From Bacteriovoracaceae bacterium (GTDB lineage Bacteria; Bdellovibrionota; Bacteriovoracia; Bacteriovoracales; Bacteriovoracaceae): a stretch of DNA of 26,671 bases. Made by a program: the position numbers and the translations under genes. The stretch is from contig JBFGZE010000041.1 of assembly GCA_041586955.1 (NCBI GenBank), positions 1 through 26,671 on the forward strand, given 5' to 3'. This document shows, piece after piece, positions 2,080 through 21,246 of this stretch. Below the pieces are notes generated by a model. The model saw only the letters and a list, made by a program, of their open reading frames with translations, had not been told where the DNA came from and searched no databases. Each line of letters begins with the position of its first letter. The first letter of the stretch is position 1.

Positions 2080-2469
2080 TTAAACAAGGTCTTTAATTTT
2101 ATACTTTTTAAGTTCACCCAAAAATGCCGATGTCGCTTTAGACAACATGCCCTTCAATTTACAATGAGGCTCGAGCGTACACGTATTACTTTCCGGGTCA
2201 AAGCACTCCACAATTTCAAAACTTTCAACTTGTGAAATAAGTTCCGCGAGAGTTCTGTTTTGAGCACCTGGGTTGAACTCAATCCCCCCCTTTGGCCCTT
2301 GGCTACTGTGAATATATCCAAGTTCGGAAAGCTTATTAACAGCAACGCTTAAATGATTTTTAGAGATATTGTAACTATCTGCAATATCTTGGATTCTCAC
2401 CTTGCCTTTATTGCGCTGCAGATAGATGAGGACTCGAATACAATAATCTGTTTTTGTTTTTAAACGCAT
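2080..2469 (-). CDS. nsrR: Rrf2-family NO-sensing transcriptional repressor (NsrR-like)
   Basis: MRLKTKTDYCIRVLIYL N-terminus, wHTH with QGPKGG, three Cys in VECFDPESNTCTLEPHCKL. Divergent from qNor-ric. Confidence 0.85.
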   Translation of the reverse strand: MRLKTKTDYCIRVLIYLQRNKGKVRIQDIADSYNISKNHLSVAVNKLSELGYIHSSQGPKGGIEFNPGAQNRTLAELISQVESFEIVECFDPESNTCTLEPHCKLKGMLSKATSAFLGELKKYKIKDLV

Positions 2470-2501: not shown

Positions 2502-2524
2502 AAGATATTTTTAAAATATATTAA
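2502..2524. promoter_or_regulatory. Candidate NsrR operator in the nsrR/qNor divergent intergenic region
   Basis: AAGATATTTTT-A-AAATATATTAA resembles the 11-1-11 NsrR consensus AAGATGYATTT-N-AAATRCATCTT. The background is very AT-rich, which weakens the match. Confidence 0.45.
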
Positions 2525-2564: not shown

Positions 2565-4838
2565 ATGAAAAAGTATTGGTTATTGTTAGTCATTGTTCTT
2601 ACCGGGACATTTACAATCTTAGGGTTTTTTGGAAATGAAGTTTACAAACAGGCACCTCCGATCTATCGCTATTTAAAAACTGATACGCATGGCGTAATAC
2701 ACACTCAGGAAGATATTCTAGATGGCCAAACCATATGGCAATCAATTGGTGGTCAACAAATAGGCTCAATTTGGGGCCATGGTGCATACCAGGCCCCTGA
2801 TTGGACTGCAGACTGGCTGCATAGAGAACTCGTTAATTATCAAGAGATATATGCTCTCGAACATTTCAATAAAAATTTTGAGGATACATCGACCCAACAA
2901 AAAATGATGATTAAGGCCTCTATGCTGGAAGATTATCGACACTCAAAACTCGTTAATGACTCGGTTACCCTTTCAAAGACTAGGTACCAAGCATTTTTAA
3001 AAACAAAGAAATACTATCTCAGTCTTTTTAGTAATTCGCCCGAATTAAGAGATACAAGAAAGGCCTATGCTATTCATGAAGAAGTTCTACCTTCCTTGGA
3101 AAAACGTGAAAAAATGATGGCGTTTTTTCATTGGTCAACTTGGGCGGCATCTGCAAATAGACCCGGACAAAAACACACTTATACAAATAATTGGCCCCAC
3201 GAGCCTTTAATAGACAATATACCAACAAGTGAAAATATATTTTGGTCTATCATTTCGGTCATTTTATTATTGGCCTCAATTGGATTTTTGGTTTGGTTTT
3301 ACGCATTTAAAAAGGAAGAAGATGAGACCAGTCTAAAACTTCCAGAAACTGATCCCTTACAGAATTTCAGCTTAACACCTTCAATGAAATCGTTATGGAA
3401 ATACTGGGCAACAGTTATTCTTCTCTTTATTTTACAGATCGGTCTCGGTGGAATTCTTGCCCATTATACTGTAGAGGGACAGGATTTTTATGGAATCCCA
3501 ATATCAAAACTGCTTCCTTATACCTTAGCGAGAACTTGGCACATTCAACTGGCCCTATTCTGGATTGCGACCTCATTTCTTGCGGCAGGACTTTTTATCG
3601 CACCAATAATAAACGGTGGAAAAGATCCTAAATACCAAAAATTTGGAGTTAATTTTTTATTTGGGGCATTACTAGTCGTTGTTTTGGGCTCTCTAACTGG
3701 AGAGGCATTAGCTATTCATCAATTGCTTGACCTCAATTTAAGCTTTTTGTTTGGCCATCAAGGGTATGAATATGTGGACCTTGGAAGAGTCTGGCAAATA
3801 TTACTTCTAGTTGGATTGGGAGTGTGGCTTCTTTTGATGTTGAGATGTATTGCTCCTGCGTTAAAGTGGGCGAAAGATACAAAGCAACTTTTACTCCTCT
3901 TTGCGGCATCAACAATTGCGATCGGTTTGTTTTATGGAGGAGGACTCTTTTATGGCGCCAGGACGCACATAAGTATAATGGAGTTTTGGAGATGGTGGGT
4001 TGTTCACCTTTGGGTTGAAGGTTTTTTCGAAGTTTTTGCTACAGTAGCACTTGCATTTATATTTGTAACGCTTGGATTAATTAAACCTAAATCCGCAACT
4101 AAAGCATCCCTTCTTTCTACCTCTATCTTTTTAATAGGTGGAATCCCTGGAACCTTCCATCATCTTTACTTTAGTGGAACACCCTCCTCAATCAGTGCAA
4201 TTGGTGCGTGTTTTTCGGCCCTTGAAGTTGTTCCGCTTGTCTTAATTGGGTTTGAAGCATTTCATACCTTTAAAATACAAAAACTAACAAGTTGGACCAG
4301 AAATTATAAATGGCCCATTACCTTTTTTGTAGGAGTGGCCTTTTGGAACTTACTTGGTGCTGGAATATTTGGCTTTTTAATTAATCCTCCAATTGCACTT
4401 TATTACTTACAAGGTTTAAACACCACTGCAGTTCATGCACATGGTGCTACGTTTGGAGTCTATGGTCTTTTATCTTTAGGTTTAATCATTTTTATCGTGC
4501 AAACAACATTTAATAAAAGGCAATGGAACGATAAAGTCATGAGCTTTGCGTTCTGGGGAATGAATATTGGGCTTGTCCTGATGATTGTTTTAAGCCTACT
4601 CCCAATTGGCATGATTCAATTTTGGGCATCTTTAGAATCTGGACTTTGGTACGCGAGAGGTTCAGAAGTAATGCAATCCAATCTCATACAAAACTTAAGA
4701 TGGCTTAGAGCAATAGGTGATGTCATATTTGCAGCAGGTGCCTTGGCATATGCACTCGCCGTCTTAGATAAGGCGGGGATTTATAAAATCAAGGTGGCCG
4801 ATAAAGAAATTAATCGTGAATTGGCCTTAGAAAACTAA
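2565..4838 (+). CDS. norB: Quinol-dependent nitric oxide reductase (qNor, NorZ/NorB type)
   Basis: 757 aa polytopic membrane protein. GSIWGHGAYQAPDWTADWLH, RTWHIQL, WWVVHLWVEGFFEVF, GTFHHLYF, SALEVVPL, HAHGA: heme b/b3 and FeB ligands and conserved Glu present. Confidence 0.96.
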   Translation: MKKYWLLLVIVLTGTFTILGFFGNEVYKQAPPIYRYLKTDTHGVIHTQEDILDGQTIWQSIGGQQIGSIWGHGAYQAPDWTADWLHRELVNYQEIYALEHFNKNFEDTSTQQKMMIKASMLEDYRHSKLVNDSVTLSKTRYQAFLKTKKYYLSLFSNSPELRDTRKAYAIHEEVLPSLEKREKMMAFFHWSTWAASANRPGQKHTYTNNWPHEPLIDNIPTSENIFWSIISVILLLASIGFLVWFYAFKKEEDETSLKLPETDPLQNFSLTPSMKSLWKYWATVILLFILQIGLGGILAHYTVEGQDFYGIPISKLLPYTLARTWHIQLALFWIATSFLAAGLFIAPIINGGKDPKYQKFGVNFLFGALLVVVLGSLTGEALAIHQLLDLNLSFLFGHQGYEYVDLGRVWQILLLVGLGVWLLLMLRCIAPALKWAKDTKQLLLLFAASTIAIGLFYGGGLFYGARTHISIMEFWRWWVVHLWVEGFFEVFATVALAFIFVTLGLIKPKSATKASLLSTSIFLIGGIPGTFHHLYFSGTPSSISAIGACFSALEVVPLVLIGFEAFHTFKIQKLTSWTRNYKWPITFFVGVAFWNLLGAGIFGFLINPPIALYYLQGLNTTAVHAHGATFGVYGLLSLGLIIFIVQTTFNKRQWNDKVMSFAFWGMNIGLVLMIVLSLLPIGMIQFWASLESGLWYARGSEVMQSNLIQNLRWLRAIGDVIFAAGALAYALAVLDKAGIYKIKVADKEINRELALEN

Positions 4839-4857: not shown

Positions 4858-5520
4858 ATGGAATTAAATGGAAAAAGTACTTTAGGGGAATGGGCATCCA
4901 CCTCGCCAGGGGCAAGCGCTGTATTTATCAAAAATAGTTTTGATTTTTGTTATAAAGGTTCTCAATCGCTGGAGGAATCTTGCAAGGCCAAAGGAGTAGC
5001 GGTTGAAAAAGTCATTGAACAAATTAAGGAATATTCTAAAGGTAAGGACCTCCTTACCTGGAATTCTTTGGAATTAGAGCAAATGATCGATAAAATTCTC
5101 GAACGATTTCATCATAAACATCGTCAAGATTTAACCATCTTAATTCCCCTTGCGAGGAAAGTAGAATCTGCTCATATGGATAATAAATATTCACCTCAGG
5201 GATTAGCGTTTTTTTTAGAGAAGTTATTGTTTGAACTTGAGTCACATATGAAAAAAGAAGAACAAATTCTTTTTCCATTGATTAAATCAGGCCAAGGACA
5301 AATGTCGCTTGGACCCATTAACATGATGATATATGAGCATGTCGGACATGGTGAAAACCTTGCTCAGCTAAAAGCACTCGCAAAAAACTATAAATTGCCT
5401 GAGAATGCTTGCGAAAGTTGGGTCACGCTCTATCAAGGAGTGTCCACTCTTGAACGAGAAATCATGGAGCATATTGCAATAGAAAACAATGTATTATTTC
5501 CAAAAGCATTAAATGGATAA
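4858..5520 (+). CDS. ytfE: Iron-sulfur cluster repair di-iron protein (Ric/YtfE/ScdA), with a variant N-terminal motif
   Basis: 220 aa. ScdA_N-like domain (DFCYKG instead of DFCCGG) and hemerythrin ligands in RFHH, HMKKEEQILFP, EH, HIAIENNVLFP. Confidence 0.93.
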   Translation: MELNGKSTLGEWASTSPGASAVFIKNSFDFCYKGSQSLEESCKAKGVAVEKVIEQIKEYSKGKDLLTWNSLELEQMIDKILERFHHKHRQDLTILIPLARKVESAHMDNKYSPQGLAFFLEKLLFELESHMKKEEQILFPLIKSGQGQMSLGPINMMIYEHVGHGENLAQLKALAKNYKLPENACESWVTLYQGVSTLEREIMEHIAIENNVLFPKALNG

Positions 5521-5524
5521 GTGA

Positions 5525-5550
5525 GGGCGAGAAAGGTTTTCTCTTCGCTC
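5525..5550 (+). terminator. Imperfect hairpin immediately after ric
   Basis: GGGCGA...TCGCTC outer stem, or alternative GAGAAA-GGT-TTTCTC. No U-tract. Confidence 0.3.
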
Positions 5551-5585
5551 CCCCAGCATAAACGAAAGAGAAATCACGTTTTGAT

Positions 5586-5603
5586 AATCACATAAGTGTG
5601 ATT
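5586..5603. promoter_or_regulatory. Palindromic operator-like site upstream of the small CCGGCS ORF
   Basis: AATCACA-TAAG-TGTGATT, perfect 7-bp arms. Confidence 0.35.
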
Positions 5604-5668
5604 GAAATAACTCAAGATATAACGCAAATAAAAAGATAGCTTGATTGGAGCTAAAATAAGGAGTCTCT

Positions 5669-5776
5669 ATGAATAATGAAAAAAAAGATGAGTCAGAAAA
5701 AGAAAAAGGGCCACTAACAGAAAATAAGGAAATCGTAGAAGAAACAAATGATGGCTGTTGTGGAGGCTGTAGCTAA
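5669..5776 (+). CDS. Small acidic peptide (35 aa) with C-terminal CCGGCS, resembling CCGSCS-motif proteins
   Basis: MNNEKKDESEKEKGPLTENKEIVEETNDGCCGGCS*. SD AAGGAG ends 5 nt before ATG and a strong terminator follows. Below the ORF-track size cutoff. Confidence 0.75.
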   Translation: MNNEKKDESEKEKGPLTENKEIVEETNDGCCGGCS

Positions 5777-5812: not shown

Positions 5813-5848
5813 TAAAAGAGGGACCTATATCAAAGGGTCCCTCTTTTA
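5813..5848. terminator. Rho-independent, potentially bidirectional terminator
   Basis: TAAAAGAGGGACC-N10-GGTCCCTCTTTTA, 13-bp stem with A/T tracts on both sides. Confidence 0.8.
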
Positions 5849-6018
5849 AACGAGAAATTATGGCCAATAAAAGTTTCACTAGATAGTCACTACCTCTAAT
5901 ATAAACAAAGTTAATTTTAATAGTCACATGTCTCCAAACAGAATTTGATTACAACAATGTCACTACAATGAATGGTCAAGAATCTGCATATTCGCTAGTC
6001 CCTAAAGAGACAGAGCTT

Positions 6019-11979: not shown

Positions 11980-12105
11980 CTCTTCATGATAAAGAAATAC
12001 GCCTAGTTGGGCCAATTTTTATCTTCTTTTTAAGTCGAAATAGGTTTCTTTTTGGCGTATATTGATGTATCCATTAACCAAGGATTGGGAGGATTTTTAA
12101 CGCTT

Positions 12106-12534
12106 ATGCTAAAAATTAGTAAAAAAACAGAATATGCACTCATGGCCATCAAGTTTATGGCCTCGTTAGGCCCTGAAAAAAAGACCTCAGCACGTGAGAT
12201 CTGCCAATATTTTAATATCCCCTTTGACCCCACTGCTAAAGTTCTACAAATACTCCACCACCATGAAATTGTTGTTTCCACTCAAGGTGTCAAGGGAGGC
12301 TATATCTTGGCCAAACCTCTTGATCAGGTCTCTTATTTTGACCTCCATCATATGATTGAAGGTAAAAAAGAGGATTGGACCATTTGCCATAATACCAAAG
12401 GCGTTTGTGACCATTTTACAAATTGCCAAATACAAGATCCCCTCTTTCATCTCGATGAATTGATTCAGGGATTTCTCAAAAACATTAACTTAAAAGAATT
12501 ACTTTTAACGCAAGAAAGGACATTAAAGTCATGA
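12106..12534 (+). CDS. Rrf2-family regulator of the suf operon (IscR/SufR-like)
   Basis: [15 protein letters not shown]-terminus, QGVKGGY, three Cys ([15 protein letters not shown]). GGAGG upstream of ATG 12106. Stop overlaps the sufB start. Confidence 0.88.
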
Positions 12535-13964
12535 GCACCGATGATATCATCAATAGCGAATATAAATACGGCTTTTATACCGATATTGAGACAGAAGAAT
12601 TTCCAAAAGGTCTCAATGAAGAAATCATTCATTTAATATCGGCCAAAAAAGACGAACCAAAATGGTTGTTGGAGTATAGGCTTAAGGCCTACCGCTATTG
12701 GCTGACACTTACTCCTCCCACTTGGGCCAAACTGGAAATTCCAAAAATTGATTTTGAGGATCTCTATTATTATTCAGCGCCAAAGAGTAAGTCCGATAAT
12801 CCAGCGAGCTTAGATGAAGTTGATCCCGAGTTATTGGCAACGTTTGAAAAACTAGGAATTCCTTTAGGTGAACAAAAAAGAATTACAGGTGTTGCGGTTG
12901 ATGCCGTATTTGATTCGGTATCTGTCGGAACAACTTATAAGGAAGACCTCGAAAAGGTCGGTGTCATTTTCTGCTCCATTAGTGAAGCAGTTAAAGAGCA
13001 TCCTGAACTCGTCAAAAAATACCTCGGAACGATTGTCCCCTATAAAGATAACTTTTATGCGGCCCTTAATGCCGCCGTCTTTTCCGATGGCTCTTTTGTG
13101 TATATCCCAAAGGGCGTTACTTGCCCACTCGACCTCTCAACTTATTTCCGTATCAACGCCAAAGAGACAGGGCAATTTGAACGCACACTTGTCATCGCCG
13201 ACGAAGGCTCTTATGTCAATTACCTCGAGGGTTGCACCGCTCCTCAACGCGATGAAAACCAATTACATGCTGCAATCGTCGAATTAGTGGCGCACGATAA
13301 TGCCACCATTCGCTACTCCACCGTCCAAAACTGGTATGCAGGAGACAAAGAAGGTAAAGGTGGGATTTATAATTTTGTGACCAAGCGTGGGAACTGTCTC
13401 GGTAAAAATAGTTTTATCTCCTGGACCCAAGTGGAAGCCGGCTCGGCCATTACTTGGAAATATCCTAGCTGCAACCTTATTGGTGATAATTCTCAGGGGG
13501 CCTTTTACTCTGTGGCCTTAACAAATAATAAAATGCAGGCAGACACTGGAACGAAGATGGTTCATATTGGTAAAAATACCAAAAGCACGATTATTTCAAA
13601 GGGTATCTCTGCTGAACAATCTGAAAATAATTACCGCGGCCTAGTTAAAGTAGGACCAGGGGCAACGAATGCTCGTAATTATTCTCAATGTGACTCGATG
13701 TTAGTCGGTCGCCAATCATCGGCCAATACCTTTCCCTATATCGATGTCAAAAATAATACCGCCACAGTCGAGCATGAAGCGTCCACCACAAAAATCAGTG
13801 AGGACCAGCTCTTTTATTTACAGTCCCGCGGTATGGATATGGAGAAATGTATTTCCATGATTGTGAGTGGATTTTGCCAAGATGTCTTCAAAGAATTGCC
13901 ATTAGAATTCTCAGTTGAGGCCGTTAAATTATTAGAAATGAAATTAGAAAATAGTATTGGATAA
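12531..13964 (+). CDS. sufB: Fe-S cluster assembly protein SufB
   Basis: 477 aa. [44 protein letters not shown]. Confidence 0.97.
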
Positions 13965-13974
13965 AGGTGTTATT

Positions 13975-14730
13975 ATGATCAAAATAGAAAACCTACACGC
14001 GAAGGTAGGCGATAATGAAATTCTCAAAGGTATTAACCTTGAAGTAAAAGCAGGCGAAGTTCATGCTATAATGGGCCCAAATGGCTCAGGAAAAAGTACT
14101 CTCTCAAAGGTTATTGCGGGCCATCCTTCATTTGAAGTTTCACAGGGCAAAATCACTTATAATATAAATGGTAAAGATTCAGACCTTCAGGAATTAGAAG
14201 CACATGAACGCGCTAAAGAGGGAATCTTCTTGGGCTTCCAATACCCTGTAGAAATTCCAGGTGTTAATAATATTACATTTTTACGAGAAAGTTTTAATGA
14301 GATTTGCCGCCACCACGGTGTTGCCGAAATGGACGAAGAGGAATTTAGAGCTTTTCTTAAACCTAAAATGGACCTTTTAGAAATGAATCCTGCCTTTTTA
14401 GATCGTTCAGTGAATACTGGATTTTCAGGTGGTGAAAAAAAGAAAAATGAAATTTTACAAATGGCAGTCCTTAATCCACGCCTTAGCCTTTTAGATGAAA
14501 CGGACTCTGGCCTTGATATAGATGCCCTTAAAATTGTCGCCAAAGGCGTCAATGGCCTTAAGACCCGTTATAATGCCACCATCCTTGTGACTCATTACCA
14601 ACGCCTCTTAGATTATATTGTACCTGATTACGTCCACGTCCTCTACGGTGGAAAGATTATTAAATCCGGAGGAAAAGAATTGGCCTTGGAGCTAGAAGAA
14701 AAAGGCTACGATTGGCTCATTTCGAAATAA
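13975..14730 (+). CDS. sufC: Fe-S cluster assembly ATPase SufC
   Basis: Walker A GPNGSGKS, FQYPVEIPGV, FSGGEKKK, LDETDSGLDIDAL, THYQRLL. ATG at 13975 preferred. Confidence 0.97.
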   Translation: MIKIENLHAKVGDNEILKGINLEVKAGEVHAIMGPNGSGKSTLSKVIAGHPSFEVSQGKITYNINGKDSDLQELEAHERAKEGIFLGFQYPVEIPGVNNITFLRESFNEICRHHGVAEMDEEEFRAFLKPKMDLLEMNPAFLDRSVNTGFSGGEKKKNEILQMAVLNPRLSLLDETDSGLDIDALKIVAKGVNGLKTRYNATILVTHYQRLLDYIVPDYVHVLYGGKIIKSGGKELALELEEKGYDWLISK

Positions 14731-14737
14731 AGGACGA

Positions 14738-16012
14738 ATGACAATGACTGGAGAATTAATGAAACCTCAATGGGAAAAGATGATTCCTGATAATAGAAAC
14801 CCTCTGCGTGAACAGGGAGCAAATCTATTTAAAAATCTGCCCTTCCCTCATAAAAAACAAGAGCATTGGAAATATACTGCCCTTGAAGATTTCCTTCCTG
14901 AGCAATTAGATGTTAATGAACAGGATGGCAGTCTCGCGACAGCAGACTCCCTTTTCCCTCATATTGATGCCCATCGCTTATTTATTATTAATGGCAAATT
15001 AGACCGCAACCAATCCACTCTCCCTGAAAAAATGGTGATTCATGAATCCGTTGACGGAGACATGCCATTTTCTCTTTCTGAACTAGACTCTAAAGATGAA
15101 ATGGAAGCTTTTAATCAGGCCGCTTTTAAACAGGGAATCGGTTTGACGTTACCAAAAGGCACGGTGCTCGAAAAACCTCTGATGATCTTTCATTTAGGGA
15201 CGGAAACGTCATCCCAAATGGAAATCACACGCCTTCATTTTCAATTTGGGCCCAATACTGAAGCGCAAATTCTTGAGTTTCTAATGCCTAAGAAGTCATG
15301 TTTGCAAAACGTTACGACCTTAACACTCGAAAACAATGCCCATATTGAGCATATTCGCATCAATTTAGGAACACCGAACTCTCTTCTTTTGGCCACATGC
15401 AAGGCCTATTTAAAAAAAGATGCTCAATTAAATAATTTCGCCCTTACTTTGGGTGGTAAATTAACTCGTCAAAATATTAATGTTTATTTACAAGAAAGTG
15501 GCTCTTTCGCTCGCGTCAATGGCCTTTATTGTCTCAAAGAAAATGAGCATGGTGATCATAACGGTCAAATCCACCACCTAGTCGAAAAAACCACGTCAAA
15601 TCAACTCTATAAAGGAATTGTCGATGACGAAGGTCACGGCATTTTTACAGGTAAAGTGATTATTCATCGCGAGGCAATCGAAGTTGATGCCACTCAATTA
15701 AATAAAAATATCCTTCTCTCCAAAAAGGCCCATGTTAACTCTAGGCCTCAACTTGAAGTTTATGCCGATGATGTTAAGGCCGCCCATGGCGCTACCGTCG
15801 GCCAAATTTCCCCAGAAGAAGTCTTTTATCTGCAAAGTCGGGGAATTGATTACCACCGCGCCCAGAAAATCATCTGTCATGCCTTTGCCCGTGAACCCAT
15901 TGAATACCTTAAAAGTAAGGCCATCGGTGATGCCATTGGCAAACTCATTTTTGATGAATTTGAAAAGCGGGCCATGCGCCATTTTGAAGAAGTTGAGGTG
16001 AGCAATGATTAA
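14738..16012 (+). CDS. sufD: Fe-S cluster assembly protein SufD
   Basis: EHWKYT, PQLEVYADDVKAAHGATVG, FYLQSRGI. Alternative start at 14759. Confidence 0.93.
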   Translation: MTMTGELMKPQWEKMIPDNRNPLREQGANLFKNLPFPHKKQEHWKYTALEDFLPEQLDVNEQDGSLATADSLFPHIDAHRLFIINGKLDRNQSTLPEKMVIHESVDGDMPFSLSELDSKDEMEAFNQAAFKQGIGLTLPKGTVLEKPLMIFHLGTETSSQMEITRLHFQFGPNTEAQILEFLMPKKSCLQNVTTLTLENNAHIEHIRINLGTPNSLLLATCKAYLKKDAQLNNFALTLGGKLTRQNINVYLQESGSFARVNGLYCLKENEHGDHNGQIHHLVEKTTSNQLYKGIVDDEGHGIFTGKVIIHREAIEVDATQLNKNILLSKKAHVNSRPQLEVYADDVKAAHGATVGQISPEEVFYLQSRGIDYHRAQKIICHAFAREPIEYLKSKAIGDAIGKLIFDEFEKRAMRHFEEVEVSND

Positions 16013-17216
16013 TCCTCACCGCGCCCTCTTTCCCTGCTTAGACCAGATGATAAAAGGTAACCCTCTTGTCTACTTAGATAATGCGGCGACAACTCTCAAG
16101 CCCCAGGTGGTCATTGACCAAATTACACATCATTATTCAAAAATGACCGCCAATGTTCACCGTGGAGTGCATACCCTCTCCACAGAGGCCACCGCCCAAT
16201 ACGAAGCAACCCGCACCCTTGTTAAAGAATTTATTAACGCATCATCTGAGAAAGAAATTATTTTCACCAAAGGCACGACGGAGTCGATCAATTTAGTGGC
16301 GCAATCCTTGACCTCAGGGAAGTTTTTATCGCCAGGTGATGAAATTCTTGTCAGTCGTATGGAGCATCATTCCAATATTGTTCCTTGGCAATTGATTCTA
16401 GAAAGGAGCGGTGCCAAATTGATTGAAATTCCTATCACTCAAAATGGCGATATTGATCAAGAGGCCTTCCTTCAATTACTTGGCCCTAAAACCAAGATGA
16501 TGGCCGTCACTCATGTCTCAAATTCTTTGGGCACGGTTAACCCTATTAAGAAAATGATTGCCGCCGCCAAATCCCACGGCGCTTTAACTTTGATTGACGC
16601 CGCTCAATCCATAGCTCATACACCTATTGATGTCCAAGATCTCAACGTCGATTTTTTCTGCTTTTCCGGTCATAAAATGTACGGGCCAACAGGAATTGGT
16701 ATTCTCTATGGGAAAGAGGAACTTCTCGATAAAATGCCTCCCTACCAAGGAGGTGGTGCCATGATTAAAACCGTTAGTTTTGAAAAAACGACCTTTAATG
16801 ATTTACCCGAAAAATTTGAAGCGGGAACCCCTCATATCTCTGGGGCCATATGTCTAAAGTCGGCGATCGAGTTTATTCAAAATATTGGTTTTGAAGAAAT
16901 TGCTCGAATTGAAAACAATTTGACCAATATGGCCCTCGCAGAACTCCGCCAAATTAAAAAACTACGTTTAATCGGTAATCCGGAAAAACGTGCTTGTGTC
17001 ATCTCATTTTTTATTGATGGCGCTCACCCACATGATGTGGGGACTTTATTAGATCAACAGGGAGTCGCCATTCGTACAGGCCATCATTGTACCGCCCCTT
17101 TGATGGACTTTTACGGCATCCCCGCCACCTGCCGCGCCTCTTTTGCCATTTATAATGATGAAAGTGACGTGGAAAAATTTTTGGTGGCACTTCATAAATC
17201 TTTAGAACTCCTATAG
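16005..17216 (+). CDS. sufS: Class II cysteine desulfurase SufS
   Basis: YLDNAATT, EHHSNIVPW, FSGHKMYGPTGIG (PLP Lys), FEAGTP, RTGHHC (catalytic Cys). Confidence 0.96.
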   Translation: MINPHRALFPCLDQMIKGNPLVYLDNAATTLKPQVVIDQITHHYSKMTANVHRGVHTLSTEATAQYEATRTLVKEFINASSEKEIIFTKGTTESINLVAQSLTSGKFLSPGDEILVSRMEHHSNIVPWQLILERSGAKLIEIPITQNGDIDQEAFLQLLGPKTKMMAVTHVSNSLGTVNPIKKMIAAAKSHGALTLIDAAQSIAHTPIDVQDLNVDFFCFSGHKMYGPTGIGILYGKEELLDKMPPYQGGGAMIKTVSFEKTTFNDLPEKFEAGTPHISGAICLKSAIEFIQNIGFEEIARIENNLTNMALAELRQIKKLRLIGNPEKRACVISFFIDGAHPHDVGTLLDQQGVAIRTGHHCTAPLMDFYGIPATCRASFAIYNDESDVEKFLVALHKSLELL

Positions 17217-17232
17217 GGAGAAGGATATTCAT

Positions 17233-17796
17233 ATGTCAGACGTGGCCATTACCATTCAACCAACCCCCAACCCTAACGCCCTCAAGTTTATTCTGAGCGG
17301 CCAGGTAAAAAAAGAGGGAAATTCAACCTATCGTACGCCTCTAGATTGTGGGGATAATAAATTAGCTCTTAATTTATTTAGCGTCCGTGGTGTTGACCAG
17401 GTGCATTTTTTTGATAATGTCATCACCATCACCAAATTCACCTATGAAGATTGGGAAAATATAGAACTCGCCGCGAGTGAAATGATTAAAGATGGTTTTG
17501 AGGATCATAATCCCGATTACTTTGACCCCGATCCCGAAGCAGAGCGTAGACGTAATTTACCACCCGAATTAGAAACGATTGAGGCCATTCTCGATAAAAC
17601 AATTCGCCCAGGCCTTCAAGGAGATGGAGGAGATATTCAAACCGTCAGTATTGAGGATAATATTCTCTTGGTCCGTTACCAAGGTGCTTGCGGCACATGC
17701 CCCAGCTCAACGACTGGTACCCTTGAGGCCATTCGCGGTATTCTTAAAGAGCAATTCCGCGAAGATATTGAAGTTTATATCGCCCCAGAATACTAG
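17233..17796 (+). CDS. Nfu-type Fe-S carrier (Nfu_N plus NifU_C domains)
   Basis: PTPNPNALKF N-terminal domain and IRPGLQGDGGD...YQGACGTCPSS CxxC. Confidence 0.92.
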   Translation: MSDVAITIQPTPNPNALKFILSGQVKKEGNSTYRTPLDCGDNKLALNLFSVRGVDQVHFFDNVITITKFTYEDWENIELAASEMIKDGFEDHNPDYFDPDPEAERRRNLPPELETIEAILDKTIRPGLQGDGGDIQTVSIEDNILLVRYQGACGTCPSSTTGTLEAIRGILKEQFREDIEVYIAPEY

Positions 17797-20391: not shown

Positions 20392-21246
20392 TTACTCATC
20401 GGCCGGAAGATATTCCAACATTTCAGGATAATTATAAGACTTGGCGAAGCTCCGAGCGTTACGCCCTTTGTTATTCTTTATATAGGGGTTTGCTCCCTGA
20501 TCAATGAGGTAAATAACAATTTCCGTAAATCCCTCCCGAGTAGCGTAGAGTAACGCCGTCATTCCCTCATCATCTTTCGCATTTATAAGCGCCCCAGATT
20601 CTATAAGACTACGAGCAATATTAATATTCCCCTCCATGGCGGCATCCATCAGATGAGTAAAACCACCACTATTTGTAAGAAGATTCGCATCTGCACCTTT
20701 ATCGAGGAGCATTTTTACCATATCGCCATGCCCTCCACCGACCGCCAGGCCCAGAGGAGTGATCCCTTGTTTATTTTGATGATTGACATCCGCTCCACGG
20801 GCCATCAACTCGAAAAAACAATCCATGCAATTGCCATTGATTGACTCCATCAAAAGAGAATAGCCCTCTTCATCTTTCCAATTGATATCGAGACCAGTCT
20901 CTAAGGCCTTGTGTAATTCTTCAAACTTACCGCTATAGGCAAGATCTCCATAGTTTTGATTATTAATTTTTAAAGGCCGCCCCTCTTCTACCAACTGAGA
21001 TGTTTCAATTTGAGATTGGGCCTTTGTCACATGATCTTCAATTATGACTTCTTCCTGAACTGGGTTATCCCGTAGAGCAGGATCAGGAGCAGGAGCAGAA
21101 ACTTTGACTTCATTCTCTTTTACAGAATCAGTAATCAACACTGGAGAACGATCCAAATCCTTTTCAGGGCTAGAGAGTGATACAGATTGACGATAGAGAA
21201 AGAGAATGGGTATTAGAATAAGTGTACTTAATAGTACCTTTTTCAT
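20392..21246 (-). CDS. Exported ankyrin-repeat protein (about 6 repeats), candidate Bd3460-like immunity protein
   Basis: N-terminal hydrophobic segment, acidic/Pro linker, then repeats such as GITPLGLAVGGGHGDMVKMLLDKGAD and GMTALLYATREGFTEIVIYLIDQGANP. Start overlaps the dacB stop (ATGA). Confidence 0.9.
   Translation of the reverse strand: MKKVLLSTLILIPILFLYRQSVSLSSPEKDLDRSPVLITDSVKENEVKVSAPAPDPALRDNPVQEEVIIEDHVTKAQSQIETSQLVEEGRPLKINNQNYGDLAYSGKFEELHKALETGLDINWKDEEGYSLLMESINGNCMDCFFELMARGADVNHQNKQGITPLGLAVGGGHGDMVKMLLDKGADANLLTNSGGFTHLMDAAMEGNINIARSLIESGALINAKDDEGMTALLYATREGFTEIVIYLIDQGANPYIKNNKGRNARSFAKSYNYPEMLEYLPADE

What the first reader, a model, noticed from the sequence alone, without database searches (positions are those of the whole stretch)
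4858..5776. Ric/YtfE has lost its CCGG motif while the next small ORF carries DGCCGGCS: possible in-trans thiol partner
Seen: Ric keeps all di-iron His/Glu ligands but reads DFCYKG (tgt tat aaa ggt) where the family has DFCCGG/DYCCGG. About 150 bp downstream an unannotated 35-aa ORF ends in DGCCGGCS. Established: the vicinal Cys pair of E. coli YtfE (C30/C31) lies near the di-iron site and is implicated in redox relay. Inference: the peptide could supply the missing dithiol or shuttle Fe/NO, giving a two-component Fe-S repair system next to qNor and NsrR. C-to-Y is a single-nucleotide change, so the pairing may be coincidence or a sequencing error.
Basis: partly seen in the sequence, partly recalled or inferred. 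Interest (0 to 1): 0.72.

Follow-up and report, generated by a model that had tools for sequence, protein, structure and literature searches.

The report
Cysteine-tail peptide beside the Ric gene
The tiny gene after Ric is real and encodes a free-standing copy of a cysteine-rich tail that close relatives carry fused to the end of Ric itself, so it is a partner module of the nitric-oxide stress system rather than a patch for one lost cysteine.

Summary
Observation confirmed. Ric (4858-5520) reads DFCYKG (TAT at 4951-4953). A 35-aa ORF (5669-5776) ends in NDGCCGGCS, has an AAGGAG ribosome site, and is followed by a 13-bp hairpin terminator.

The ORF is a conserved gene. Five genomes of the window's family carry free-standing versions (35-49 aa, lysine/glutamate-rich, ending N[DG]GCCG[SG]CS), and a 1.84-billion-protein library holds six more. 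Across ten genomes the tail codons vary at third positions but keep all three Cys.

The same tail is fused to the Ric C-terminus in five related genomes, four with intact DFCC[GE]G. It is also fused in 11 of the 120 best Ric homologues, all 11 with an intact Cys pair. The fusions do support a Ric-peptide functional link.

Two genomes have the peptide but no Ric, next to qNor and/or NnrS. Loss of the Cys pair or of the whole N-domain was seen only in the clade that holds these tail- and peptide-linked Rics, so redundancy remains possible.

Best reading: a flexible thiolate arm (electron, iron or NO relay) of the NsrR/qNor/Ric/NnrS locus; the mechanism is inferred. Closest named family: TIGR04101 "CCGSCS motif protein" (function unknown). 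Only the tail is shared and the HMM cut-off is not met.

The parts
2080..2469 (-). Rrf2-family regulator (NsrR-like), divergent from the operon
   Evidence: Pfam Rrf2 98.1 bits, E 5.8e-28. The same divergent arrangement is seen in L015, L024, L021, L008 and L040.
2502..2524 (.). AT-rich palindrome in the nsrR-qNor intergenic region; candidate NsrR operator
   Evidence: Inverted repeat 2502-2511 / 2513-2522, 90% complementary. Similar GATATAT...ATATATC palindromes sit in the same divergent promoter of L024, L021 and L040. The operator assignment rests on a consensus recalled from E. coli and is inference.
2565..4838 (+). Quinol-dependent nitric oxide reductase (qNor), 757 aa
   Evidence: Pfam COX1 209.5 bits and NorB_cytochrome_c-like 198.1 bits.
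4858..5520 (+). Ric/YtfE di-iron protein, 220 aa, with DFCYKG in place of DFCCGG
   Evidence: 70% identical to metagenomic Rics P0004 and P0007, which keep DFCCGG.
4951..4953 (+). TAT codon (Tyr32) at the position of the second vicinal Cys
   Evidence: Read directly. It aligns to YtfE position 31. Not covered by laid contigs.
5658..5663 (+). Shine-Dalgarno AAGGAG, 5 nt before the peptide ATG
   Evidence: All 5 free-standing homologues have AGGAG, GGAG or AAGAG within the 18-20 nt printed upstream of their ATG.
5669..5776 (+). Small protein gene, 35 aa: lysine/glutamate-rich, ending in the NDGCCGGCS tail
   Evidence: Single copy in its own genome.
5750..5773 (+). DGCCGGCS tail motif; the same motif is fused to Ric in relatives
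   Evidence: Pattern match. Codon comparison over 10 genomes.
5813..5852 (+). Terminator-like hairpin (13-bp perfect stem) with a T run, ending the qNor-Ric-peptide unit
   Evidence: z -4.18. No comparable terminator lies between Ric and the peptide.

Best explanation
The 35-aa ORF is a genuine small protein of the NsrR-controlled nitric-oxide stress unit nsrR | qNor-Ric-peptide. It has a disordered, lysine/glutamate-rich stretch that ends in a three-cysteine tail, N[DG]GCCG[SG]CS.

In this lineage (records titled Bacteriovoracaceae or Halobacteriovoraceae) the tail is a module that exists in two forms. It is either fused to the C-terminus of Ric or encoded as a free-standing peptide in the same locus. 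The window holds the free-standing form.

Shown here: the gene is conserved and under coding constraint, the fused and split forms alternate, and the module sits in the locus with qNor, Ric and NnrS.

Inferred: the tail acts as a flexible thiolate 'swinging arm'. It would carry reducing equivalents, ferrous iron or NO/iron-nitrosyl species to or from Ric's di-iron site or the ScdA_N Cys pair, and perhaps to NnrS. This would parallel the C-terminal cysteines of mercuric reductase, which hand Hg to the active-site cysteines. Because such an arm partly duplicates the job of the ScdA_N Cys pair, that pair (or the whole N-domain) can be lost in this clade, as in the window. The tail was not acquired to repair that loss.
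For: (1) Conservation.
- Five free-standing homologues (window, G007, G091, G108, G153) align with M1, E8, N27, G29, C30, C31, G32, C34 and S35 invariant.
- A profile search of 1.84 billion representatives gives 8 clusters at E<=1e-3, of which 6 are new peptides of 38-56 aa with the same end.
- The exact tail pattern occurs in 9 of 237 family genomes, against 0 of 237 for the reversed control pattern. Eight of the nine are real.

(2) Coding constraint. In the last six sense codons over 10 genomes, all six vary at the third position. The only amino-acid change is S/G at the x position.

(3) Fusion.
- Ric ends ...KAL(S/T/N)(K/E/R)VD(G/V)CCGSCS in G015, G021, G117, G106 and G147.
- 11 of the 120 best Ric homologues end in CC-x(1-3)-C. 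These include three (P0079, P0093, P0097) outside the clade.

(4) All 8 Rics of the clade that I could see with DNA context have the tail, fused (5) or split (3). None of the 20 other Rics examined has a fused tail, and no tail-like ORF was seen in the held flanks (about 1.5 kb at most; some contigs end sooner).

(5) An AlphaFold2 model of the fused G021 Ric has mean pLDDT 92.2, with tail residues 223-228 below 50. This fits a flexible appendage after the last helix.

(6) Literature.
- The ScdA_N Cys pair delivers electrons to the di-iron centre. Reduction by Fe-thiolate strictly needs it. The physiological reductant is unknown. A Pelobacter YtfE orthologue carries a C-terminal ferredoxin-like domain (PMC9052748, passages).
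- Cysteine-free ScdA is still active with an artificial donor (PMC12412097, passages).
- The MerA C-terminal cysteines pass Hg to the active-site cysteines (PMC4500099, passages).

(7) The Cys pair or N-domain is missing in 5 of the 120 best homologues (P0019, P0055, P0057, P0061, P0099) and in G000, G007, G091 and G147. All of these fall in the 100/100-supported clade of 29 rows, and none in the 21 rows outside it.
Against: - No experiment and no expression data. The one RNA/DNA run search gave no usable cover.
- G153 (92% complete) and G108 (80% complete) have the peptide but no Ric. Their best Ric-model hits are 24 bits or lower, or none. The peptide therefore does not strictly need Ric.
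- The tail or peptide lies directly upstream of NnrS in 7 of 10 genomes (gaps of 6 to about 40 nt). The fusion to Ric could be a by-product of gene order.
- The rows in the tree were partly hand-picked: CC-less and tailed proteins were added on purpose. The '0 outside the clade' contrast is therefore ascertainment-prone, and relatives are not independent.
- Nothing here distinguishes electron, iron or NO carriage.
- The topology argument that the C-terminus emerges near the N-domain hinge is inference from an up-down four-helix bundle. It was not measured.
Confidence: 0.55

Rival explanations
1. One reading: the peptide is an in-trans replacement for the vicinal dithiol that this Ric lost (C32Y). 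Together they form a two-component Ric in which the peptide's CC takes the place of the ScdA_N CC.
For: All 3 Rics seen beside a separate peptide lack the pair: window DFCYKG, and G007 and G091 without ScdA_N. The tail motif D-G-C-C-G-G resembles the ScdA_N motif D-F-C-C-G-G (read directly). All losses of the pair that I saw lie in the tail-linked clade.
Against: - 4 of 5 fused-tail genomes and 11 of 11 fused-tail database Rics keep the CC.
- Fused forms include the earliest-branching rows of the clade. The tail is therefore not tied to the window's loss, although the order of events is unresolved.
- The CC-intact Ric P0009 and the free peptide P0126 share sources and a longest-contig length of 20,993 bp.
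- G153 and G108 have the peptide without Ric.
- The window's ScdA_N domain is otherwise maintained: 48-58% identity to its 8 nearest relatives, against 60% among them.
Confidence: 0.15
2. The peptide works mainly with the membrane NO proteins (NnrS, qNor) or on its own. It would act as a metal (Cu or Fe) chaperone or as a sacrificial thiol/iron-nitrosyl sink. The fusions to Ric would be accidents of the gene order Ric-peptide-NnrS.
For: The peptide or tail ends 6 to about 40 nt before the NnrS start in G021, G117, G106, G147, G091, G108 and G153. In G153 the order is qNor-peptide-NnrS with no Ric in the genome. A DUF2249 protein in another family of the phylum ends in ...SGGCCGACGG, so the tail is not exclusive to Ric.
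Against: In the window and in G007 and G015 no NnrS follows; the window's NnrS is on another contig. Fused Ric tails recur with different linkers of 0-13 residues, including three Rics outside the clade. That argues for selection rather than one accidental deletion.
Confidence: 0.2
3. The ORF is a precursor of a ribosomally made, modified or exported peptide (RiPP or bacteriocin-like).
For: It is small, with a hydrophilic 'leader' and a Cys-rich C-terminal 'core'.
Against: No modifying enzyme, protease or dedicated exporter accompanies it in any of the 5 loci. The neighbours are qNor, Ric, NnrS, a hemerythrin-PAS protein, and in the window a MarR regulator with an RND pump. The same tail sits on the end of a cytoplasmic enzyme. 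The PADLOC and PHROGs libraries were not searched.
Confidence: 0.04
4. Chance ORF, or an assembly or sequencing artefact, with no product.
For: It is very short and of low complexity. Pfam and NCBIfam give no hit. The Atlas best score is 0.78.
Against: Conservation across genomes, synonymous-only variation, ribosome sites, and gene calls in 8 independent clusters.
Confidence: 0.02

Closest known systems
RIC / YtfE / ScdA di-iron proteins (TIGR03652, NF008221; PDB 5FNN, 7BHA, 9J47)
   Same: The window gene has both domains and all six iron ligands, and aligns to YtfE over residues 8-220. It lies in an NsrR-type NO-stress locus with qNor.
   Different: The second vicinal Cys is Tyr. Its closest relatives carry a C-terminal CCG[SG]CS tail, or encode it separately. 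This feature is not mentioned in the RIC review (PMC9268430, passages) or in the passages read from PMC9052748 and PMC12412097.
NCBIfam TIGR04101 'CCGSCS motif protein' (function unknown)
   Same: Small (48-61 aa), hydrophilic proteins ending in ...G(V)CCGSCS or ...CCGGCGG, each with its own ribosome site. Found in 8 of 401 genomes of one gammaproteobacterial order. hhalign of the two peptide alignments gives probability 95.6% and E 1.3e-8.
   Different: Only the last 14 columns align. The window peptide gives no hit to the model, and the best clade peptide scores 7.5 bits against a cut-off of 28. TIGR04101 members have an M-x-x-S-F-K-K-I-F start and a K-H-G motif that are absent here. Their 14 examined neighbours belong to unrelated families, none NO-related.
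C-terminal vicinal-cysteine 'swinging arms': mercuric reductase MerA, and high-Mr thioredoxin reductases (the latter recalled, not read)
   Same: A Cys-Cys pair on a flexible C-terminal end passes a metal ion or reducing equivalents to a buried active-site pair (MerA: PMC4500099, passages). The Ric tail is likewise terminal and is predicted to be disordered.
   Different: No sequence or fold relation, and a different enzyme class. Here the arm can also be a separate 35-49-aa protein. This is a functional analogy only.
YtfE orthologue with a C-terminal ferredoxin-like domain (Pelobacter propionicus, as cited in PMC9052748)
   Same: An accessory Cys-based redox module is appended to the C-terminus of a Ric (passage).
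   Different: That module is a full CxxCxxCx(n)C [4Fe-4S] domain. Here there are only three Cys in six residues. I did not examine that protein.

Membership tests
RIC/YtfE (TIGR03652, NF008221) | ScdA_N domain followed by a hemerythrin-like four-helix domain | tested here: met
   PF04405 47.4 bits (cut-off 32.5) and PF01814 73 bits (cut-off 25.3). Aligns to 5FNN over residues 8-220.
RIC/YtfE (TIGR03652, NF008221) | Six di-iron ligands (4 His, 2 Glu) | tested here: met
   H85, H130, E134, H161, H205 and E209 are invariant in the 33-row alignment headed by the window protein.
RIC/YtfE (TIGR03652, NF008221) | Vicinal Cys pair in the D-f-C-C-g-G motif | tested here: not met
   The window reads DFCYKG. 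115 of the 120 best homologues of a related Ric have CC.
RIC/YtfE (TIGR03652, NF008221) | Score over the curated model cut-off | tested here: not met
   TIGR03652 204.3 against 204.7 bits (missed by 0.4). NF008221 226.7 against 254.
TIGR04101 CCGSCS motif protein | Score over the curated cut-off (28 bits) | tested here: not met
   No hit for the window peptide at E<=1. 9 of 10 related peptides give no hit, and one scores 7.5 bits. No true hit in 5 carrier genomes.
TIGR04101 CCGSCS motif protein | Small protein ending in CCGSCS | tested here: inconclusive
   The window ends in CCGGCS. Relatives G007, G108 and G153 end in CCGSCS. hhalign aligns only the last 14 columns.
TIGR04101 CCGSCS motif protein | N-terminal M-x-x-S-F-K-K-I-F region and K-H-G before the tail (seen in members fetched here) | tested here: not met
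   Compare alignment A5 with A2.
RiPP precursor | Adjacent modifying enzyme or dedicated maturation/export genes | tested here: not met
   The neighbours in 5 loci are NO-stress genes or unrelated.
C-terminal redox or metal 'swinging arm' | Redox-active or metal-binding vicinal dithiol that exchanges with an active-site centre | not testable with these tools
   Only terminal position and predicted disorder could be shown.

The most novel reading that the evidence does not exclude
The CCG[SG]CS tail is the missing physiological relay of RIC proteins: a minimal thiolate arm that brings electrons (or Fe-thiolate) to the di-iron site. As a free 35-49-aa 'mini-redoxin' it makes the otherwise near-universal ScdA_N Cys pair dispensable. 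That would explain why the pair or the whole N-domain was lost at least five separate times, and only in the clade that owns the tail. It would also give a first function to the orphan 'CCGSCS motif protein' family.
Probability: 0.2. Interest if true: 0.75.

Novelty: new variant of a known kind. Interest (0 to 1): 0.52.

Why it matters
How RIC/YtfE proteins are reduced in the cell, and what their conserved Cys pair hands over, is still open. PMC9052748 states that the physiological reductant is unknown.

A cysteine tail that evolution has repeatedly fused to Ric, or kept as a tiny gene beside it, is a concrete and cheap-to-test candidate for that hand-over step. One can use a synthetic peptide, tail truncations, and nitrite-reductase and iron-donation assays.

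It also gives the first genomic-context clue for small proteins ending in CCGSCS, which NCBI names by motif only. And it shows natural Rics that work without the Cys pair or without the ScdA_N domain.

Tried and rejected
- Reads for the TAT codon. One run search and one lay. A second run gave one 245-nt contig over 5413-5657 only, so the codon is neither confirmed nor denied.
Scores were 0.01 and 0.00 against a mark of 0.32. The tool's verdict was 'no answer', which is not evidence either way.
- The search for homologous proteins with the two-peptide alignment. Only the window's own peptide came back, from 3 candidates.
- Metagenome-contig scan with the window Ric. It returned 30 loci at 44% identity or less, with no tail or peptide. 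The search patterns were too window-specific, so the scan was uninformative.
- Atlas look-alikes. Best score 0.78, no lead.
- The search of earlier findings, three times. Nothing found.
- Literature searches. 'CCGSCS' gave 4 irrelevant papers. 'TIGR04101' gave 0. A search on RIC plus C-terminal extension and cysteine gave nothing on such a tail.
- Glutathione question. The window's own genome has a GSH-S_ATP hit (189 bits) but no E. coli-type GshA. This is inconclusive and was dropped.
- Chance matches set aside. 10 of the 15 genome contigs stretches were rejected: 6 end in TGG rather than a stop, and 4 are short frames in unrelated high-GC or other records. G247 and G140 (stop inside) were also rejected.
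- Direction of evolution (fusion or fission). The backbone supports in the tree are weak (92/59, 91/75, 94/80), so this is left open.
Full report
**1. What is in the window**

The + strand carries a compact unit.
- An Rrf2/NsrR-like regulator lies at 2080-2469 on the minus strand.
- A 95-nt AT-rich divergent promoter follows, with a palindrome at 2502-2524.
- qNor is at 2565-4838.
- Ric is at 4858-5520.
- A 148-nt spacer follows, with no convincing terminator.
- A 35-aa ORF is at 5669-5776, with AAGGAG 5 nt upstream.
- A perfect 13-bp hairpin with a T run lies at 5813-5852 (z -4.2).
- A MarR gene and an RND efflux system follow.

Ric has both Pfam domains. It aligns to E. coli YtfE over residues 8-220 and keeps the six iron ligands. 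It reads DFCYKG, with TAT at 4951-4953, where the family has DFCCGG. The peptide is MNNEKKDESEKEKGPLTENKEIVEETNDGCCGGCS. It is single-copy in its genome.

**2. The small ORF is a real, conserved gene**

Free-standing homologues occur in four more genomes of the same family: G007, G091, G108 and G153.
- Each has a ribosome-binding-like site within the 18-20 nt printed upstream of its ATG.
- Each has the same build: a Met-(Asn/Ser)-(Asp/Asn/Glu)-Glu start, a lysine/glutamate/threonine-rich stretch of variable length, and the end N-(D/G)-G-C-C-G-(S/G)-C-S.

A profile of the five was run against 1.84 billion representative proteins. It finds 8 clusters at E<=1e-3. Two are the window's and G091's own. 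Six are new peptides of 38-56 aa with the same end. Two of the six are called 'hypothetical protein' by their source.

Across the ten genomes with the tail, all of the last six sense codons vary at third positions. The three Cys, the Gly and the last Ser never change.

The exact D-G-C-C-G-x-C-S-stop pattern occurs in 9 of 237 genomes of the family, against 0 of 237 for the reversed control pattern. Eight of the nine are real and one (G247) is a chance match in another frame.

A scan of about 185,000 species genomes required AGY for the last Ser. It gave 15 stretches, where my own uniform-composition arithmetic expects about 9 by chance.
- Five are real. All five sit in records titled Bacteriovoracaceae or Halobacteriovoraceae, except one titled Epsilonproteobacteria. 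All five repeat sequences already seen among the handles.
- Ten are chance.

In an even sample of 401 genomes of the phylum, only G000 and G007 give strong peptide hits. The element is therefore rare and lineage-restricted.

**3. The same tail is fused to Ric in close relatives**

This is the key result. The Rics most similar to the window's among the held genomes are 56-64% identical over the matched part. They fall into two groups.
- G015, G021, G117 and G106 are full-length, keep DFCC(E/G)G, and end ...KAL-x-x-VD(G/V)CCGSCS.
- G147 has the same fused tail but an in-frame deletion of the ScdA_N domain.
- G007 and G091 are short, DnrN-like Rics without ScdA_N. In them the peptide is a separate gene after a 322-aa hemerythrin-PAS protein.
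- The window is full-length with C32Y and a separate peptide.

So all 8 Rics of this clade that I could see with DNA context have the tail: 5 fused and 3 split. The other 20 Rics examined are 26-42% identical to the window's. All have DFCC(G/K)G. None has a fused tail, and no tail-like ORF was seen in the flanks held, which reach about 1.5 kb at most.

I then searched 5.8 billion proteins with the fused G021 Ric and examined the best 120 of 2,527 hits.
- 11 end in CC-x(1-3)-C.
- Eight of them are 57-96% identical to the query (...DGCCGSCS, ...TGCCGSCT, ...GSCCGSCS).
- Three are 46-48% identical (...DVCCGHCTCG, ...SSCCGGCGG, ...GICCGSCQ).
- All 11 have an intact Cys pair.
- Linkers between the last helix and the tail range from 0 to 13 residues.
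- One of the fused proteins is an NCBI entry from a Bacteriovorax isolate, annotated simply as an iron-sulfur cluster repair di-iron protein.

An AlphaFold2 model of the fused G021 protein is confident overall (mean pLDDT 92.2) but scores below 50 for residues 223-228. The tail is therefore a flexible appendage.

**4.

They do, in fused form. In addition:
- G153 (92% complete) and G108 (80% complete) carry the peptide but no Ric. Their best Ric-model hits are 24 bits or lower, or none. In G153 the order is nsrR | qNor-peptide-NnrS.
- The CC-intact, unfused Ric P0009 belongs to the window's own 99/99-supported sub-clade. It shares its three sources and its longest-contig length (20,993 bp) with the free peptide P0126. 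This is circumstantial, and I could not fetch the DNA.

The tail is thus a standing feature of this Ric lineage, not a repair of the window's mutation.

Something of the idea survives.
- Among the best 120 homologues, 115 have CC and 5 do not: P0019 (DFCAGG), P0055 (NFCTYG), and P0057, P0061 and P0099, which lack ScdA_N.
- In a maximum-likelihood tree of 50 Rics, these five and G000, G007, G091 and G147 all lie inside one clade of 29 rows (support 100/100). That clade holds all the tail-linked Rics of this lineage.
- None of the 21 rows outside the clade lacks the pair.
- The losses map to at least five separate places: G147; P0055; the group G007/P0099/G091/P0057; P0061; and G000 and/or P0019.

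The caveats are real. I added the CC-less and the tailed proteins to the tree on purpose. Relatives are not independent. For the database proteins I do not know whether a free peptide lies nearby.

The window's ScdA_N domain is not decaying. It is 48-58% identical to its eight nearest relatives, against 60% among them. The C-domain figures are 68-76% against 79%.

The recurrence of second-Cys loss in P0019 and P0055 makes a sequencing error an unnecessary explanation for TAT. The codon itself could not be checked in reads.

**5. Context and likely mechanism**

The unit is an NO-stress locus: an Rrf2 regulator, qNor, Ric, and in most relatives NnrS.
- NnrS was confirmed by Pfam at 289.9 bits and by HMM hits.
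- Similar palindromes sit in the divergent promoter of four loci. Calling them NsrR operators rests on a recalled consensus.
- The tail or peptide ends 6 to about 40 nt before NnrS in 7 of 10 genomes: G021, G117, G106, G147, G091, G108 and G153.
- It does not do so in the window, G007 or G015.

The literature frames the chemistry.
- YtfE is a nitrite reductase that makes NO. Its ScdA_N Cys pair feeds electrons to the di-iron centre. Reduction by Fe-thiolate strictly needs that pair. The physiological reductant is unknown. One orthologue carries a C-terminal ferredoxin-like domain (PMC9052748, abstract and passages).
- Cysteine-free ScdA remains active with an artificial donor (PMC12412097, passages).
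- RIC can donate iron and binds Isc/Suf proteins (PMC9268430, passages; search listing).

Against this background, the best-supported reading is that the tail is a flexible thiolate arm serving Ric, and possibly NnrS. Three cysteines within six terminal residues sit on a disordered tether, and the module is either fused to Ric or free. The arm could carry reducing equivalents, Fe(II) or iron-nitrosyl/NO. This is analogous to the C-terminal cysteines of mercuric reductase, which pass Hg to the active-site pair (PMC4500099, passages), and to the Cys-Cys/Cys-Sec ends of large thioredoxin reductases (recalled, not read).

In an up-down four-helix bundle the end of helix 4 lies at the same pole as the start of helix 1. 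That is where ScdA_N is hinged, so the tail could reach the Cys pair and its channel. This is inference from topology, not a measurement.

Which cargo the tail carries is not decided by anything here.

**6. Comparison with what is known**

NCBIfam has a model named 'CCGSCS motif protein' (TIGR04101; 59 positions; cut-off 28 bits). I found members in 8 of 401 genomes of one gammaproteobacterial order.
- They are 48-61 aa, hydrophilic, and end in ...KHG-x-x-G-V-CCGSCS or ...CCGGCGG(E).
- The window peptide does not hit the model. The best clade peptide scores 7.5 bits.
- Profile-profile comparison gives 95.6% probability, but over the last 14 columns only.
- Fourteen neighbours of those genes belong to unrelated families, none NO-related.
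- No paper in the searched library contains 'TIGR04101'. 'CCGSCS' returns four unrelated papers.

The nearest named kind is therefore an orphan motif family. The window peptide resembles it in build and tail but fails its membership test. The Ric fusion and the NO-locus context are, as far as my searches reach, not described.

**7. Verdict**

The finding is a new variant of known kinds: a Ric accessory tail, related by motif to the CCGSCS small proteins. Interest is moderate. It offers a testable candidate for the unknown electron or iron hand-over to RIC proteins, and natural examples of Rics without the Cys pair. No function has been shown.

Noticed in passing
window 12052-17796: A second Rrf2-family regulator is followed by SufB, SufC, SufD, SufS and an Nfu-type carrier. 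This is a complete SUF iron-sulfur assembly operon about 6 kb from the NO-stress unit.
   Followed up: no
L093 1492-1770 (-), genome G413: A 92-aa DUF2249 protein (29.4 bits against a cut-off of 29.5) ends in ...SEESSGGCCGACGG. It lies next to a TAT-signal HiPIP and a divergent Crp/Fnr regulator. A similar cysteine tail therefore sits on another nitrate/NO-associated domain in a different family of the phylum.
   Followed up: partly
L039 1468-2049 (-) / L015 3501-4082 (-), genome G147: This Ric has a clean in-frame deletion of the whole ScdA_N domain (MSLGRNNS|KDSDSLLWDK...), yet keeps the fused CCGSCS tail and the qNor-Ric-NnrS order.
   Followed up: partly
L008 1993-2961 (+) and L040 1958-2926 (+): A 322-aa hemerythrin + PAS_10 protein sits between a short, DnrN-like Ric and the peptide gene in G007 and G091.
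   Followed up: no
window 2502-2524; L024 5724; L021 5989; L040 1446: Conserved AT-rich palindromes (GATATAT...ATATATC type) lie in the promoter shared by the Rrf2 regulator and the NO-stress operon. They are candidate NsrR operators of this lineage.
   Followed up: partly
window 20392-21246 (-): A 284-aa protein made almost wholly of ankyrin repeats (Ank_2 140 bits). This is unusual for bacteria and is of unknown role here.
   Followed up: no
P0048 (protein; alignment): Another Ric homologue ends in a different Cys-rich tail...GGGCGGGCSCKT. My tail regex missed it, so C-terminal cysteine tails on Ric may be more varied than the 11 of 120 counted.
   Followed up: no
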